From Candidatus Micrarchaeia archaeon (GTDB taxonomy: Archaea > Micrarchaeota > Micrarchaeia > CAILAH01), in contig JAVZCB010000001.1 of NCBI GenBank assembly GCA_038874595.1, positions 96,001 to 160,000 on the forward strand: 64,000 nt of DNA, written 5' to 3'. Shown here in pieces: positions 5,725 to 48,787 of the stretch (within the stretch, counting starts at the first letter, position 1; the number at the start of each line of letters is the position of its first letter). A program made the translations under genes and the position numbers. The notes beneath the pieces are model-generated. The model was given only the letters and a program-made list of their open reading frames with translations, was not told where the DNA came from and did no database searches.

Positions 5725-8700
5725 TAACTCAAGAACACACACAGATAACAACGCACAGCAGCAGGCAACAGCCATTATTCATAATGATATCAAGGCATAT
5801 TTCAAGCGTATCGAGGAGGGGGCACAGGAAGCGCTCAGGATTGCAAACGAGGCGCGCAGGAAAGGCTACGATTTCGTTGACCATGTTGAGATAACGCTTG
5901 CACCTGATGTTGCAGGCCGTGTTGAGGGTATTGTTGGGCCGAAAGGCATTTCTGAGGTTATCAGGGAGCTGGTCGCACAGAAGAAGACGCGCGATGAGGT
6001 TGCGTTTGAGATTGCGCGCCGTATCACCACCAATGAATTTGCGACCGGCCTCAACACTGAGCAGCGGCTCGGGCAGGCAGTACGTACCGGCCTTGCGGTG
6101 CTTACCGAAGGTGTGCTGGTAGCACCTACTGAAGGTATATCCGCAGTTAAGATTGAGAAGAACCCTGACGGCTCAAACTACTTAGCGATTTATTTCTCCG
6201 GCCCGATTAGGTCGGCAGGAGGTACCGCAGCAGCATTGGCTGTCCTGCTGGGTGATTACGTCCGCCGGTTTGCTGATATTGGCGATTTTATACCTACAGA
6301 AACAGAACTGCTCCGCTATGTTGAGGAAGTGAATTTATATGATGCAAGGTGTGCCAGGCTGCAGTACAAGCCGCCAGATGAGGATATAAAATGGGTATTC
6401 AAGAATTGCAAGGTATGCATTGCAGGTGAGCCTACACACGATATTGAGGTTAGCGTGTACAGGAACCTTGAGCGCATGAAGACCAATAGGGTACGCAGCG
6501 GTGTTGCGCTCGTGAGCTGTGAAGGGATTGCACAGAAAGCGCGTAAAGTCCTCAAATACGCAAAGAAGTACGGGCTTGACTGGGGCTGGCTTGAGAAGCT
6601 TGTCAAGGAGAAAAAGAAAGAGGATAAGGTTGAAATCAAGCCGAACGATACGTTCTTGGAAGGGCTTGTTGCAGGCAGGCCGGTCTTTTCGTACCCATCA
6701 GCAAAAGGCGGGTTTAGGCTAAGGTATGGGCGCACGCGGTTTACAGGTATTGCTGCAAAAGCGATACACCCTGCTACTATGGTGCTGCTTGATTATTTCC
6801 CTGCGTTGGGAACACAGCTTAAGATAGAACGCCCAGGTAAAGGCACGGTAATAACACCGTGCGATACAATAATGGGCCCAATCGTTAGGCTCAAGAATGG
6901 TGATGTTGTATATGTTTCATCCTCAGATGAGGCAAAACTGCTTTATGAAGATGTTGAAAAAATCCTATTTCTAGGCGACATGCTTATATCCTATAATGAT
7001 TTTTCAAAAGCGAACCACGTGCTTTTACCATCACCGTTCGTTGAGGAGATATGGGACATGCTCGCTGCAGAAAAGTCAGCAAGCCAGGGTGAGCAAATCG
7101 TACGGCCCAGGACGGCGCGTGAGGCGTTTGATTTATCACGGAAGACATCGCTCCCATTATACCCGGCATACCTATACTTTTGGAGTGATATCTCAAAAGA
7201 AGAGCTGTTGACACTTGTTAACGCAATCACATCTGCTGGCAAAGTTGAGCTTGATTGGTTTGATGTAAAATCGCTTACAATCAATGATATGAGCGCAAAG
7301 CCCGTGCTTGAATCGCTCGGTGTGCCTCACAAGCTTAGGGATGGCGCAATAATAGTTGAAGGTGATCATGCATATTCACTTCTTGCCACACTCGGTATGC
7401 TTGGAAGCAGTTCAAACGCTAAAATATCCAGGGAAGTTATCGATTCTGCTGTTTCAAACGCCAATACTGATGACGTGTGCTCCATACTCACAATAGCATC
7501 AGGTGTTGAGATACGCAGGAAATCCACATATTATATAGGGTCCAGGATGGGCCGGCCTGAGAAGGCAGATGACCGCTCAATGGCAGGTTCTGTCCACGGC
7601 CTGTTCCCGATAGGAACGCTCGGTGGCAAACTCCGTAGTGTCTCAACAGCGATAAAGAGCAATTATGCATCCTCACTTAATGTTGACCTTGTAGAGCTGC
7701 ACTGCCACAAATGCAACGCAGTATCTTTTTATCCTGTATGCATTTCATGCGGTGCGCGCATCGAGTATGATATCTCAGCAGTTAAGCATAGTGTCAGGCC
7801 GATTGATTTCAAGTCGCTTTACGAGCGTGCAGTAAAACGATGCGATTGTTCACCTGAAGGGTTCCGTCTCATCGTGGGGCTTACAAGCAGCACAAAGTTC
7901 CCTGAAGCGCTCGAGAAAGGGCTTCTCCGTGCAAAACACGGCGTTTACGTGTTCAAGGATGGCACGTGCAGGTTTGATTCAACTGACCTGCCGGCAACGC
8001 ATTTCAGGCCGCGTGAGATAGGTACCTCAATTGAAAAGCTGCGCGAGCTTGGCTATCTATATGATGCTTCCGGCGCCCCGCTCGAATCCGAGGACCAGGT
8101 TGTTGAGCTGTTACCGCAGGATATAATATTATCAGAGAACTCTGCTGACTTTTTTTTGCGGCTCTCTCATTTCATTGATGACCTGCTCATACACCTATAT
8201 GGCATGAAGCCTTTTTACAATGCAGACTCAAAGGAGGACCTTATAGGCCATTTGTTTATCACACTCTCACCGCATACATCTGCAGGTGTGGTAAGCCGCC
8301 TCATCGGTTTTATTAAGGGCCGTGTCGGCATATCACATCCATATGTGATTTGTGCGCGCAGGAGAAATGCGGATGGTGATGAGGATACCGCGATACTTTT
8401 GATGGATGCATTCCTTAATTTCTCAAAGCTATACCTTCCAGAGACACGCGGCTCAACCATGGATGCGCCTATCGTTCTTACAACGGTTGTTGACCCTGCC
8501 GAGGTTGATGATGAAGTGCATGCAATGGAGGTTGTCAAATCTTATGGGCTCGAATTTTACAAGGCCGCTGAAGAGTACAAGCCGCCAAGCGCAATCAAGC
8601 CAGAGCTTGTTGAGGACAGGCTCGGGAAAGAAAGCGCGTTTTACTCTCTGGGGTATACGCACGAAGTCACGGATATAAATGATTCTCCAGTCCGTTCCGA

Positions 8701-20481: not shown

Positions 20482-20535
20482 CCTCAGAGAAGCGTACATA
20501 TTATGCTTTTATATGTTGGCTGCCTACTATAAAAT

Positions 20536-20591
20536 GGCGATGAAGCTCGCCGGCACAAAAGCGAACCGCCAAAGTTGGCTGATAGCTTCTG
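20536..20591 (+). promoter_or_regulatory. Fluoride (crcB) riboswitch
   Basis: GGCGAUGAAGCUCGCC...AACCGCC-aaaguu-GGCUGAUAGCUUCU: stem GGCGA/UCGCC, pseudoknot GAAGCU/AGCUUC, conserved GAUG and CUGAU; TATA-like ttttatat at 20507-20514. Confidence 0.87.
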
Positions 20592-20612
20592 GTTTTACAC
20601 GAAGGTGGTTTT

Positions 20613-46430: not shown

Positions 46431-47381
46431 TCATAAGTCCCTAGCTGCTTTTTTGAGTGTTGACCAAAACTCTTTTTCTGCCTCTTTCCATTCATTTTCA
46501 ATATCTGGGCGGAGTTTTGTGCGTGACAGTATTGTGTTGTGGAACAGTTCAAGCCCGCCAATTCTTCTTTCTAGGCCGAACGTTCCTGAAACCGAAGTTG
46601 CACGCGGAATTATATGTATTTTAAACATGTCCTTATCATATTCCGAAATCATCCAGTTTACCCCAATCCCTGAGGTTACCCGGGTATTAAGAAGGAACTC
46701 TATGTTGTTTAGATTGTCTGTAGAAATACCATATAACCAGGCAACCCTTTCAAGATTATGATAGCCATACCCATACTGCACAACTTGCTCGTACATTCTG
46801 CTTTGCACTAAACGGAAGAAGCCATCAAACAGCTGTGGGATAATGCTTCTAATATAATCGTACAAATCATTCCTGTGAATCTTACGCGTAACCGCAGTAT
46901 CATACCCGTTGCAGAGTGTCAAATGCCCGCTTTCAACAAGAATAGGCACCGATAACGGGTCAGCTATCAGGTTTTCAGCAGATTTAAGCTCAAGATATTT
47001 TGACTCTTCCACCTTTGAACAAAGAAGATGGATGTGTAAGTGCCGTATCGTTTGCCCGGCAACAATCCCAAAATTGCCAAGTGCGGTTGCACCGGGGAAG
47101 TGTTGTAGTATTTTGCCGATAGCTGTGAACATACTATCAAACTGGTTCTTTGATATATTATGGAGTGTAAGCAGATGCTCTTTTGGTGTGATAATACAAT
47201 GTTGTGGTATATAGGGATACTTTGCCTTAAGTATCCTCCAGTTTGAGCTGCTTTCAACCAAAGGTTCCTCAGCAAGCGTACAAAATCTGCAATTTGATAT
47301 ACCCTTGGTCTTCATCTCTCTTGATGTGAATGAAGGTGTTTTTTCGTCCCATCTAGGTGCCTTGATTTCATAGACGACCAT
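46431..47381 (-). CDS. HIT family hydrolase with C-terminal extension
   Basis: CRFC, KYPY...H, AGQTIRHLHIHL. Confidence 0.82.
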   Translation of the reverse strand: MVVYEIKAPRWDEKTPSFTSREMKTKGISNCRFCTLAEEPLVESSSNWRILKAKYPYIPQHCIITPKEHLLTLHNISKNQFDSMFTAIGKILQHFPGATALGNFGIVAGQTIRHLHIHLLCSKVEESKYLELKSAENLIADPLSVPILVESGHLTLCNGYDTAVTRKIHRNDLYDYIRSIIPQLFDGFFRLVQSRMYEQVVQYGYGYHNLERVAWLYGISTDNLNNIEFLLNTRVTSGIGVNWMISEYDKDMFKIHIIPRATSVSGTFGLERRIGGLELFHNTILSRTKLRPDIENEWKEAEKEFWSTLKKAARDL

Positions 47382-47491: not shown

Positions 47492-47950
47492 TGGACCTGC
47501 GCGGAATTGAACCGCGGATCTCTCGCGAAAGGGGGCATGTTTTCTTCAGCATTTTTGGCTGAAGATAAATTACCTTTCCCCACCAATCCCATATTTTAAT
47601 GGAGTTGGGTCTTATGGGGCGTCTTTGGGCTTGCCAATGACGCGTCATTTTCCCGAAGGGAAAATGCACGGAGGGGGACACCTCCCCCTCACATTCCCAA
47701 TACCTCAAAACCTCCTTAGAGGGGGAGTTGGGTCTTATGGGAGAGGGGGACACCTCCCCCTCACATTCCCAATACCTCAAAACCTCCTTAGAAGGGGAGT
47801 TGGGTCTTATGGGAGAGGGGGACACCTCCCCCTCACATTCCCAATACCTCAAAACCTCCTTAGAAGGGGAGTTGGGTCTTATGGGAGAGGGGGACACCTC
47901 CCCCTCACCCATATGTGAGGCGAGCGTCTTAACCACTCGACTACAGGTCC
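47492..47950 (-). tRNA. tRNA-Val(CAC) with 386-nt insertion/intron at 37/38 (47528-47913)
   Basis: 5' exon GGACCTGTAGTCGAGTGGTTAAGACGCTCGCCTCACA; 3' exon CGCGAGAGATCCGCGGTTCAATTCCGCGCAGGTCCA; all stems pair. Confidence 0.9.
47671..47908. repeat. 72-bp tandem repeat, 3.3 copies, inside the tRNA-Val intron
   Basis: Units start at 47671, 47743, 47815 and 47887; one substitution in copy 1; 18-nt sub-motif ggagttgggtcttatggg recurs at 47601-47618. Confidence 0.97.
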
Positions 47951-47956
47951 ATTTGT

Positions 47957-48787
47957 ATGGTTTTAAGGCGGCTTAATATTAAAATAATTCGCCGTTTCAG
48001 CATACCTGTGGCCACCTCAATAAGGATTAACAGCCTTCGCATAAGCAGAGATGAATTTGAAGGTATAATGTCAAAGTATGGGATAACTCCAGTTTCATGG
48101 TATAGTGGGGCGTACACTTCAGATTACGAAAATTTGAGTAAGACACTTGAGTACCAGCTTGGTTATTTTTATATCCAGTCACTTTCTTCAATGGTCCCAC
48201 CACTCGTGCTTGACCCAAAACCTGGTGATGTCGTTCTTGACGTTGCAGCTGCCCCGGGCAGCAAATCAACGCAGTGCGCAATGCAAATGAACGATAAGGG
48301 AGTGGTTATTGCAAATGACGTGTCATATATGCGTTTGAAAAGCCTTGCAAGTCATATAAACCGGTTAGGGATAACTTGCATTGCAATGACCAATTTTGAT
48401 GGCCGGAGGTTTCCTAAATTAGCATCGTTCAACAAAGTGCTATTAGATGCGCCGTGCAGTTCGATGGGCTCGCGCAGGTGCACAATCCAGCATTCAGATG
48501 GCAGGATAAAAAGCCTTGCGCATTTGCAGAAATCTCTGCTTTTGCGGGCATTTGACTTGCTTTCGCCTGAGGGCACACTTGTCTATTCAACATGCACAAC
48601 TACCATTGAAGAGAATGAGGGGGTTATTAATGCTCTCCTCGAAAAGAGGGATGATGTAGTTCTTGAAACACCCGTGCTGCCTTTCAGGCACGAAAAAGGC
48701 ATTTCAGGCAATTCCGTAATAGATGAGAAGGTATGCAGGTTTACGCTTGATGAATCCTTTTTCATTGCAAAGCTGCGGAAGAGATGA
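47957..48787 (+). CDS. RsmB/NOP2 family RNA m5C methyltransferase
   Basis: VLDVAAAPGSKS, LLDAPCS, VYSTCT; start probably downstream (GTG 48008). Confidence 0.93.
   Translation: MVLRRLNIKIIRRFSIPVATSIRINSLRISRDEFEGIMSKYGITPVSWYSGAYTSDYENLSKTLEYQLGYFYIQSLSSMVPPLVLDPKPGDVVLDVAAAPGSKSTQCAMQMNDKGVVIANDVSYMRLKSLASHINRLGITCIAMTNFDGRRFPKLASFNKVLLDAPCSSMGSRRCTIQHSDGRIKSLAHLQKSLLLRAFDLLSPEGTLVYSTCTTTIEENEGVINALLEKRDDVVLETPVLPFRHEKGISGNSVIDEKVCRFTLDESFFIAKLRKR

What the first reader, a model, noticed from the sequence alone, without database searches (positions are those of the whole stretch)
47492..47950. tRNA-Val(CAC) split by a 386-nt non-coding intron built from 72-nt tandem hairpin units
Seen: both exons are intact and pair fully, yet are separated by 386 nt made of 3.3 near-identical 72-nt units and further stacked hairpins. 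Each unit has a GAGGGGGA/UCCCCCUC hairpin, a bulged stem, and AUGUGAGG, which is complementary to CCUCACAU across the anticodon loop. The 3' end lacks the canonical BHB. The strand that can pair with positions 32-35 (UGGG) is separated from position 38 by an extra AAAGG...CCUUU hairpin domain. Established: archaeal BHB tRNA introns are usually much shorter and are released as circles. Inference: this is an expanding or nested intron, arising from repeated re-insertion or concatemer copying of a circular intron and possibly spliced recursively. tRNA scanners would probably miss this gene.
Basis: partly seen in the sequence, partly recalled or inferred. Interest (0 to 1): 0.8.

Follow-up and report, generated by a model that had tools for sequence, protein, structure and literature searches.

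The report
Giant two-step modular valine tRNA intron
The only GUG-reading valine tRNA gene found in this tiny archaeon (Micrarchaeota) carries a 386-base intron, three times the longest in a 2014 review, made of four copies of a hairpin module shared with other tRNA genes plus a second small intron on its exit junction, so it probably has to be cut out in two ordered steps.

Summary
Confirmed: an intact tRNA-Val(CAC) on the minus strand (47950-47492) with a 386-nt insert at 37/38, in a Micrarchaeota MAG that encodes an epsilon2-type EndA and RtcB. It is the only Val(CAC) gene found. Exons differ at 0-4 of 73 positions from three relatives whose introns are 176-200 nt and largely replaced, so it looks functional. 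The insert has two parts. A (338 nt) is four copies of a hairpin module found at 37/38 of at least six tRNA types in this family. B (48 nt) sits on A's 3' splice junction and has its own BHB; removing B restores the normal BHB for A. Of 120 introns surveyed in the family, the 12 lacking a normal end all have this B layout. Folding favours two cuts in order (costs 1.3 and 4.7 kcal/mol; normal median 4.4) over unit-by-unit splicing (9-26). Junctions fit DNA duplication better than circular-intron concatemers. No reads or RNA could be checked, so splicing and exact copy number are inferred. Nested BHB introns and intron transposition are known, and this scan already reported repeat-built and stacked introns in other archaea. 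New variant of a known kind.

The parts
47973..47984 (-). AT-rich TATA-like box 23-34 nt upstream of tRNA position 1; the spacer is shared with the divergent RsmB/F-family methyltransferase gene
   Evidence: Sequence; same AT-rich motif upstream in G001, G002 and L378. Promoter function is inferred.
47914..47950 (-). Exon 1, tRNA positions 1-37, anticodon CAC
   Evidence: identical in G002 and G006
47838..47913 (-). Intron A, unit 1 (76 nt): complete module of two hairpins ending UGGG-AA; would be a normal stand-alone BHB intron if joined to exon 2 (cost 2.1 kcal/mol)
   Evidence: module aligned across 12 loci
47766..47837 (-). Intron A, unit 2 (72 nt): copy lacking 4 nt of the module start; its first 6 nt resemble exon positions 38-43
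47694..47765 (-). Intron A, unit 3 (72 nt): copy with one substitution at 47721
47576..47693 (-). Intron A, unit 4 (118 nt): module with a 52-nt two-hairpin insert (47619-47670) and its own second hairpin; ends GGGG-AA, the strand used first by B and then by exon positions 32-35
   Evidence: related insert in Pro introns and intergenic elements of G001 and G002
47528..47575 (-). Intron B (48 nt), nested at A's 3' splice junction: central helix 47581-47578 with 47533-47530, bulges AA^A and UU^C38, 4-bp inner helix
47492..47527 (-). Exon 2, positions 38-73, discriminator A73, no encoded CCA

Best explanation
A working tRNA-Val(CAC) gene whose 37/38 intron is a composite of two protein-spliced BHB introns. 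Step 1 (inferred): the epsilon2 EndA cuts out the 48-nt B intron, whose helix uses the GGGG strand at the end of A; RtcB joins the ends. Step 2 (inferred): that freed strand pairs with C32-U33-C34 (A35 faces G), giving the ordinary 37/38 motif, and all 338 nt of A leave in one piece. A reached its size at the DNA level. A roughly 70-nt hairpin module that moves between tRNA genes of this family was duplicated, one copy took a further hairpin insert, and the first copy was amplified twice more by slippage or unequal recombination between the 22-nt direct repeats. Growth is tolerated because EndA reads only the ends. Shown: anatomy, orthologue series, shared module, BHB geometry, enzyme genes. 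Inferred: expression, cleavage, order, mode of duplication.
For: Only Val(CAC) gene found in a 93.5% complete genome. Exon differences of 73: G002 0, G006 1, G001 4 (acceptor and T-stem pairing kept), while introns are largely replaced. Of 120 introns at 37/38 in 8 family genomes, 108 pair base 32 with intron -3. The 12 that do not (Val x4, Asn x4, Thr x3, Ile x1) all end CC(C/U)(U/C)NN and have an internal NNGG AA^N site with at least 3 of 4 central pairs for both steps; 7 of the 12 were found after the pattern was written down. Shuffle p per intron 0-0.17. Folding cost: B 1.3, then A 4.7 kcal/mol, against median 4.4 (quartiles 3.2-6.3) for 79 normal introns; B step 1.1-7.6 and A step 1.0-9.0 across the 12. 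Orthologues without B end in a perfect BHB strand (G005, L378, probably G003). EndA best matches ARMAN-2 epsilon2, PDB 4FZ2, which cuts strict and relaxed motifs in vitro (PMC3239211). RtcB present. Eight other perfect tandem arrays lie in family tRNA introns.
Against: B's outer helix is poor (2 contiguous pairs), so its 3' cut lies in a multibranch junction. A's central helix has an A.G mismatch. For this intron alone the B site is borderline against shuffles (p = 0.05), and G006 Val has a weak inner helix. The predicted minimum-energy fold of the whole precursor does not keep the cloverleaf (4.2 kcal/mol to force it). Val(UAC) is present and could read GUG, so the gene may be dispensable. 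The 12 cases come from related genomes and four tRNA types, so they are not independent.
Confidence: 0.68

Rival explanations
1. Recursive splicing: units 1-3 are also removed one by one, each next unit's first 6 nt standing in for exon 2, releasing 76-, 72- and 72-nt circles.
For: Strict hBHBh' (5+4+3 pairs) at all three junctions; about 2% chance per shuffled unit; cost only 3.5 kcal/mol for the isolated arm with 6 nt of unit 2.
Against: Cost 8.6-16.8 kcal/mol in nascent transcripts with the whole exon 1 and about 26 in the full precursor, because the module hairpins and the 8-nt complement compete. Such sites are not enriched in the family. The three junctions are copies of one event. The route is not needed.
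Confidence: 0.1
2. One-step removal: the broad-specificity EndA cuts after 37 and before 38 on a distorted motif with B looped out.
For: UGGG can give 4 pairs with 32-35; epsilon2 accepts relaxed motifs (PMC3239211).
Against: No 3-nt bulge at the 3' site in that fold. The AA bulge and complementary ends in 12 of 12 cases would be unexplained.
Confidence: 0.09
3. The gene is no longer spliced (recent pseudogene) and Val(UAC) reads GUG.
For: No terminal BHB; strong competing folds; Val(UAC) present; G001 has a chimeric Thr gene, so such inserts can damage genes.
Against: Exons identical to G002 and nearly so to G006 of another genus; upstream AT-rich box kept; B geometry kept in four orthologues with different B sequences.
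Confidence: 0.07
4. Origin rival: the array is a reverse-transcribed concatemer of an excised circular intron that re-inserted at its own site.
For: The unit runs from near the module start to a splice-competent end; 8 of 9 intron arrays begin within 7 nt of the 5' splice site.
Against: The junction is 4 nt short of a true circle junction; a G003 array includes exon-2 bases; other arrays have filler at the junction; arrays also flank tRNA genes and lie elsewhere in the genome; no RT in this genome.
Confidence: 0.1
5. The copy number is an assembly error (loop unrolled or collapsed); the true intron is 314 nt or longer than 386 nt.
For: Short-read scaffolded assembly with N gaps. Units 1 and 2 are identical over 115 nt, so 150-nt reads cannot span from the unique flank to the variant in unit 3. 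G003 and G006 assemblies break inside similar introns.
Against: Unit 3 differs by one base, so at least two copies exist unless that is strain variation; the same module is duplicated with divergence in G002 Glu. The two-step model does not depend on copy number.
Confidence: 0.2

Closest known systems
Archaeal BHB tRNA introns at 37/38, cut by EndA and joined by RtcB; in Micrarchaeota (ARMAN-2) by the epsilon2 enzyme (PMC3239211)
   Same: Position, non-coding, BHB-type ends after step 1, same enzyme type in the genome, high share of interrupted tRNA genes
   Different: 386 nt against 11-129 nt in a review (PMC4090602) and medians of 22-23 nt in Asgard (bioRxiv 10.64898/2026.10.13.758758); built of tandem modules; no BHB for the insert as a whole
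Nested multiple introns of archaeal pre-tRNAs with obligatory order (Sugahara 2007; Tocchini-Valentini 2009, as summarised in PMC3978253; originals not held)
   Same: The last intron can form its BHB only after another is removed
   Different: Here both lie at one junction (37/38) and share one 4-nt strand in turn; the inner intron forms a recurring class across four tRNA types. Whether the originals describe this same-junction case could not be checked.
tRNA intron transposition in Thermoproteales (Fujishima 2010, as summarised in PMC4090602 and PMC4033280)
   Same: Similar intron sequences in different tRNA types; here 41 of 191 introns have a local match to another type in the same genome (method differs from the published one, and at least one intron was mis-called)
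   Different: Modules also lie before and after tRNA genes, after RNase P RNA and between genes; they nest in each other and amplify in tandem
REP/BIME palindromes and tRNA-linked repeats of bacteria (from memory, a lead only)
   Same: Short G/C hairpins in mosaics and tandem arrays next to stable-RNA genes
   Different: Inside introns; no Y1/RAYT transposase found in 9 family genomes

Membership tests
Archaeal BHB tRNA intron (37/38) | Exons rebuild a full cloverleaf, insert between 37 and 38 | tested here: met
Archaeal BHB tRNA intron (37/38) | BHB formed by the two ends of the whole insert | tested here: not met
   0 of 4 central pairs; so it is not a single simple BHB intron
Archaeal BHB tRNA intron (37/38) | EndA and RtcB encoded | tested here: met
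   EndA 5' end is cut by the contig start and the frame break is an N gap
Archaeal BHB tRNA intron (37/38) | Cleavage and ligation shown | not testable with these tools
Nested, ordered BHB introns | Inner intron has its own BHB in the precursor | tested here: met
   hBH with 4+4 pairs, cost 1.3 kcal/mol; outer helix weak
Nested, ordered BHB introns | Outer BHB forms only after the inner intron is removed | tested here: met
   0 of 4 before; 3 of 4 plus 5-bp outer helix after; same in 12 of 12 family cases; predicted only
Nested, ordered BHB introns | Order shown by intermediates | not testable with these tools
   needs in vitro splicing or RNA-seq
Transposed tRNA introns (Thermoproteales type) | Same intron sequence in different tRNA types | tested here: met
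   module at 37/38 of Val, Glu, Ser, Pro, Lys and Thr genes; in this genome only in Val(CAC)
Group I/II or ORF-containing introns; C/D guide intron of tRNA-Trp | Match to Rfam intron or C/D models, or an encoded protein | tested here: not met
   no Rfam hit near cut-off; the 181-aa frame through the repeat has no domain stretch passing
Circular-intron concatemer / retro-insertion | Exact circle junctions and a reverse transcriptase | tested here: not met
   junction 4 nt short; RT not found in G000
REP/RAYT elements | Cognate Y1 transposase | tested here: not met
   0 of 9 genomes; genomes are incomplete

The most novel reading that the evidence does not exclude
This Micrarchaeota family hosts an undescribed class of tiny non-coding mobile hairpin elements that land next to RNA-processing sites: the EndA 3' cut, tRNA 5' ends (14 of 160 genes) and the RNase P RNA 3' end. 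Those landing before position 38 survive as self-contained B introns that leave a GG-AA strand able to pair with the universal 32-33 bases of any tRNA. This would be a live, general route of archaeal intron gain, and the Val intron might in addition be spliced recursively in up to five steps.
Probability: 0.25. Interest if true: 0.8.

Novelty: new variant of a known kind. Interest (0 to 1): 0.5.

Why it matters
How archaeal tRNA introns arrive and grow is still open; a 2026 Asgard census found no general route (bioRxiv 10.64898/2026.10.13.758758). This locus and its relatives give a graded series at one site (0, 16, 176-226, 386 nt), a traceable module shared between tRNA types, and a rule that held in 12 of 12 cases: an intron with no normal end carries a second intron on its exit junction. 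That predicts exact intermediates that can be tested with a known enzyme type. It also explains low tRNA counts in these genomes: 5 genes by default ARAGORN, 20 with introns allowed, about 40 by hand.

Tried and rejected
Rfam at gathering and E-value thresholds: only weak miRNA/sRNA matches, taken as chance. The 181-aa and 97-aa frames through the repeat are rejected as genes: 72 nt is 24 codons, they start inside the tRNA, and Pfam hits have no passing stretch. The apparent EndA frameshift is a 10-N scaffold gap; relatives have intact 385-446-aa frames. A module scan in viral contigs gave only chance 16-mer hits without the hairpin. A class-wide pattern for B introns was mis-specified (it missed the known cases) and is uninformative. 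RT, Y1 transposase and Cas1 searches found no shared mobiliser (1, 0 and 1 of 9 genomes). The sigma-70 promoter scan does not fit archaea. Sugahara 2007 and Tocchini-Valentini 2009 are not held. A 390-nt T-loop intron in G008 was a mis-call. Nine mis-parsed genes were left out of the 120-intron survey.

Full report
Observation. The gene lies on the minus strand: exon 1 at 47950-47914, a 386-nt insert at 47913-47528 and exon 2 at 47527-47492. The exons give a complete cloverleaf with anticodon CAC and A73. ARAGORN finds nothing by default but calls it correctly when introns are allowed. The Rfam model scores 17.7 bits against a cut-off of 29. TRF gives 3.3 copies of 72 nt at 99%, with one substitution at 47721. 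The insert as a whole has no BHB: none of positions 32-35 pairs with intron -6..-3.

Host. The genome is 918 kb in 7 contigs, 93.5% complete. Its closest Elp3 relatives are mostly labelled Micrarchaeota. It encodes RtcB and an EndA whose two visible pieces both match ARMAN-2 epsilon2 EndA best (4FZ2, E 2e-43 and 3e-41). The frame break is a scaffold gap. That enzyme cuts strict and relaxed BHB motifs in vitro (PMC3239211). One gene each was found for Val GAC, TAC and CAC. GUG is about 28% of Val codons in long frames (rough). Most tRNA genes of the genome carry structured introns at 37/38 or 59/60, several sharing modules or holding perfect tandem repeats.

Orthologues. At the same site relatives carry 0 nt (G004), 16 nt with a perfect BHB (G005), 176 (G002), 185 (G006), 200 (G001) and about 226 nt (metagenome locus L378, perfect BHB end); the G003 assembly breaks inside the intron. 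Exons differ from ours at 0 (G002), 1 (G006) and 4 (G001) of 73 positions while the introns are largely replaced. This is what selection on a spliced product would give. Among about 190 introns parsed in the family, 386 nt is the longest; the next at 37/38 is 287. A review gives 11-129 nt for archaeal tRNA introns (PMC4090602).

Anatomy. The insert divides into five pieces of 76, 72, 72, 118 and 48 nt. The first four (part A) are versions of one module: a hairpin closed by UAUGGG/CCCAUA, a 3-nt linker, a second hairpin, and an end in GGG-AA. The same module begins directly after position 37 in Val, Glu, Ser, Pro, Lys and Thr genes of G001, G002, G007, G008 and L378, and follows the RNase P RNA in G001. 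In this genome it occurs only here. G001's Val intron is one module plus B; ours is four plus B. Unit 4 holds a 52-nt two-hairpin insert related to inserts in Pro introns and intergenic elements. The last piece, B, has its own motif: GGGG/CCCU central helix, bulge AA^A, inner helix of 4 pairs, 3' site UU^C38. Removing B leaves GGGG-AA next to C38, which pairs with C32, U33 and C34 under the full anticodon stem.

Family-wide test. I built a model of tRNA 5' halves, fetched the genes of six relatives and parsed 120 introns at 37/38. In 108, base 32 pairs with intron -3, as a BHB needs. The 12 exceptions (Val x4, Asn x4, Thr x3, Ile x1) all end in CC(C/U)(U/C)NN. All have an internal NNGG AA^N site that pairs with that end in at least 3 of 4 positions and, once B is removed, with 32-35 in at least 3 of 4. 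Inner helices differ in sequence yet mostly pair (8 or more base pairs in G002 Val and in G007 and G008 Asn); G006 Val is weak. Seven of the 12 were found after the pattern was noted. Per-intron shuffle p runs from 0 to 0.17 (0.05 for this one). The cases are kin and cover four tRNA types, so I give no joint p.

Mechanism. Forcing B's motif in the anticodon arm costs 1.3 kcal/mol, and A's motif after B costs 4.7, against a median of 4.4 (quartiles 3.2-6.3) for 79 normal introns. The two steps use the same four bases in turn, so the order is fixed. Each unit ends UGGG-AA and the next begins with six bases that resemble positions 38-43, giving a strict hBHBh' on paper, and unit 1 joined to the true exon 2 would be a normal intron (2.1 kcal/mol). 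Such sites are no commoner in the family than in shuffles. A simple reading (inference) is that unit 1 was once the whole intron and that slippage between the similar GCGAG of exon 2 and GTGAG of the module made the first duplicate. The 22-nt direct repeats then allowed further copies. A circle concatemer should give the exact end-to-start junction, which is 4 nt longer than seen; a G003 array includes exon-2 bases; and no RT was found here. How the modules move between genes is unexplained: no RT, Y1 transposase or Cas1 is shared by the family. Hairpins like B's 3' end also sit directly before position 1 in 14 of 160 tRNA genes, so B may be such an element that survived before position 38 because it forms a cleavable motif. 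Whether GG-AA came with A or with B cannot be told.

Limits. No reads or RNA could be examined. The longest exact repeat is 115 nt in a short-read assembly, so three copies of the 72-nt unit could be two or more than three. All splicing statements are predictions from pairing and folding energy.

Comparison and verdict. It works like the nested, ordered BHB introns known from Crenarchaeota (PMC3978253) and spreads like the transposed introns of Thermoproteales. It fails the test for a single simple BHB intron. My paper searches found no description of tandem-repeat or same-junction introns in Micrarchaeota, but the library is partial and the two key originals were not held. Earlier notes of this scan report repeat-built and stacked tRNA introns in other Micrarchaeota and Asgard genomes; these are unchecked leads, not support. 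What this locus adds is the extreme length, the orthologue series and the 12-of-12 rule. New variant of a known kind; interest 0.5.

Noticed in passing
G000 C1:24517-24732, C1:202272-202425, C2:669-815, C2:11957-12099, C2:44228-44348, C3:54785-54987, C3:55244-55342, C3:148962-149150, C6:28402-28533: Near-perfect tandem arrays of 41-91 nt inside or next to other tRNA genes (Leu, Ile, Ala, His, Cys, Ser, Asn); some include the tRNA 3' end.
   Followed up: partly
L210 (G001:C57, tRNA starting at 7934): Chimeric tRNA-Thr(TGT): Thr 5' half, a B-type intron end, then an exon-2 head matching tRNA-Asn, then the Thr 3' end. This suggests DNA-level transfer of an intron with flanking exon, or a misassembly.
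   Followed up: no
L023:380-531 (minus strand): The same module sits right after the 3' end of the RNase P RNA in G001, followed by about seven copies of an 18-nt repeat.
   Followed up: partly
G000 C1:134474-135075 and C6:35065-35301: Gly(TCC) and Gly(CCC) carry almost identical long T-loop introns; Arg(GCG) 37/38 (C3:128967) and Ile(TAT) T-loop (C1:42071) share long blocks.
   Followed up: no
G000 C3:80817-80962: tRNA-Ala(TGC) with the 3' half before the 5' half, next to rRNA-like sequence; fits the permuted gene noted earlier by the scan.
   Followed up: no
G000 C1:42071: tRNA-Ile with anticodon TAT, as reported for ARMAN (PMC3239211).
   Followed up: no
window 20527-20598 (+): Fluoride riboswitch, 41.2 bits against a cut-off of 34.
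   Followed up: no
window 48011-48787 (+) and 46431-47381 (-): Neighbours: RsmB/F-family RNA methyltransferase, divergent from the tRNA (likely start at the GTG near 48011, not 47957), and a HIT-domain protein downstream. In G004 the tRNA is co-oriented with the methyltransferase.
   Followed up: partly
G000 C6:77134-77817: CRISPR-like array at the contig end, although no Cas1 was found in the assembly.
   Followed up: no
L021 (G002 tRNA-Glu TTC): The first 22 nt of the tRNA are duplicated upstream around a hairpin insert, like a target-site duplication.
   Followed up: no
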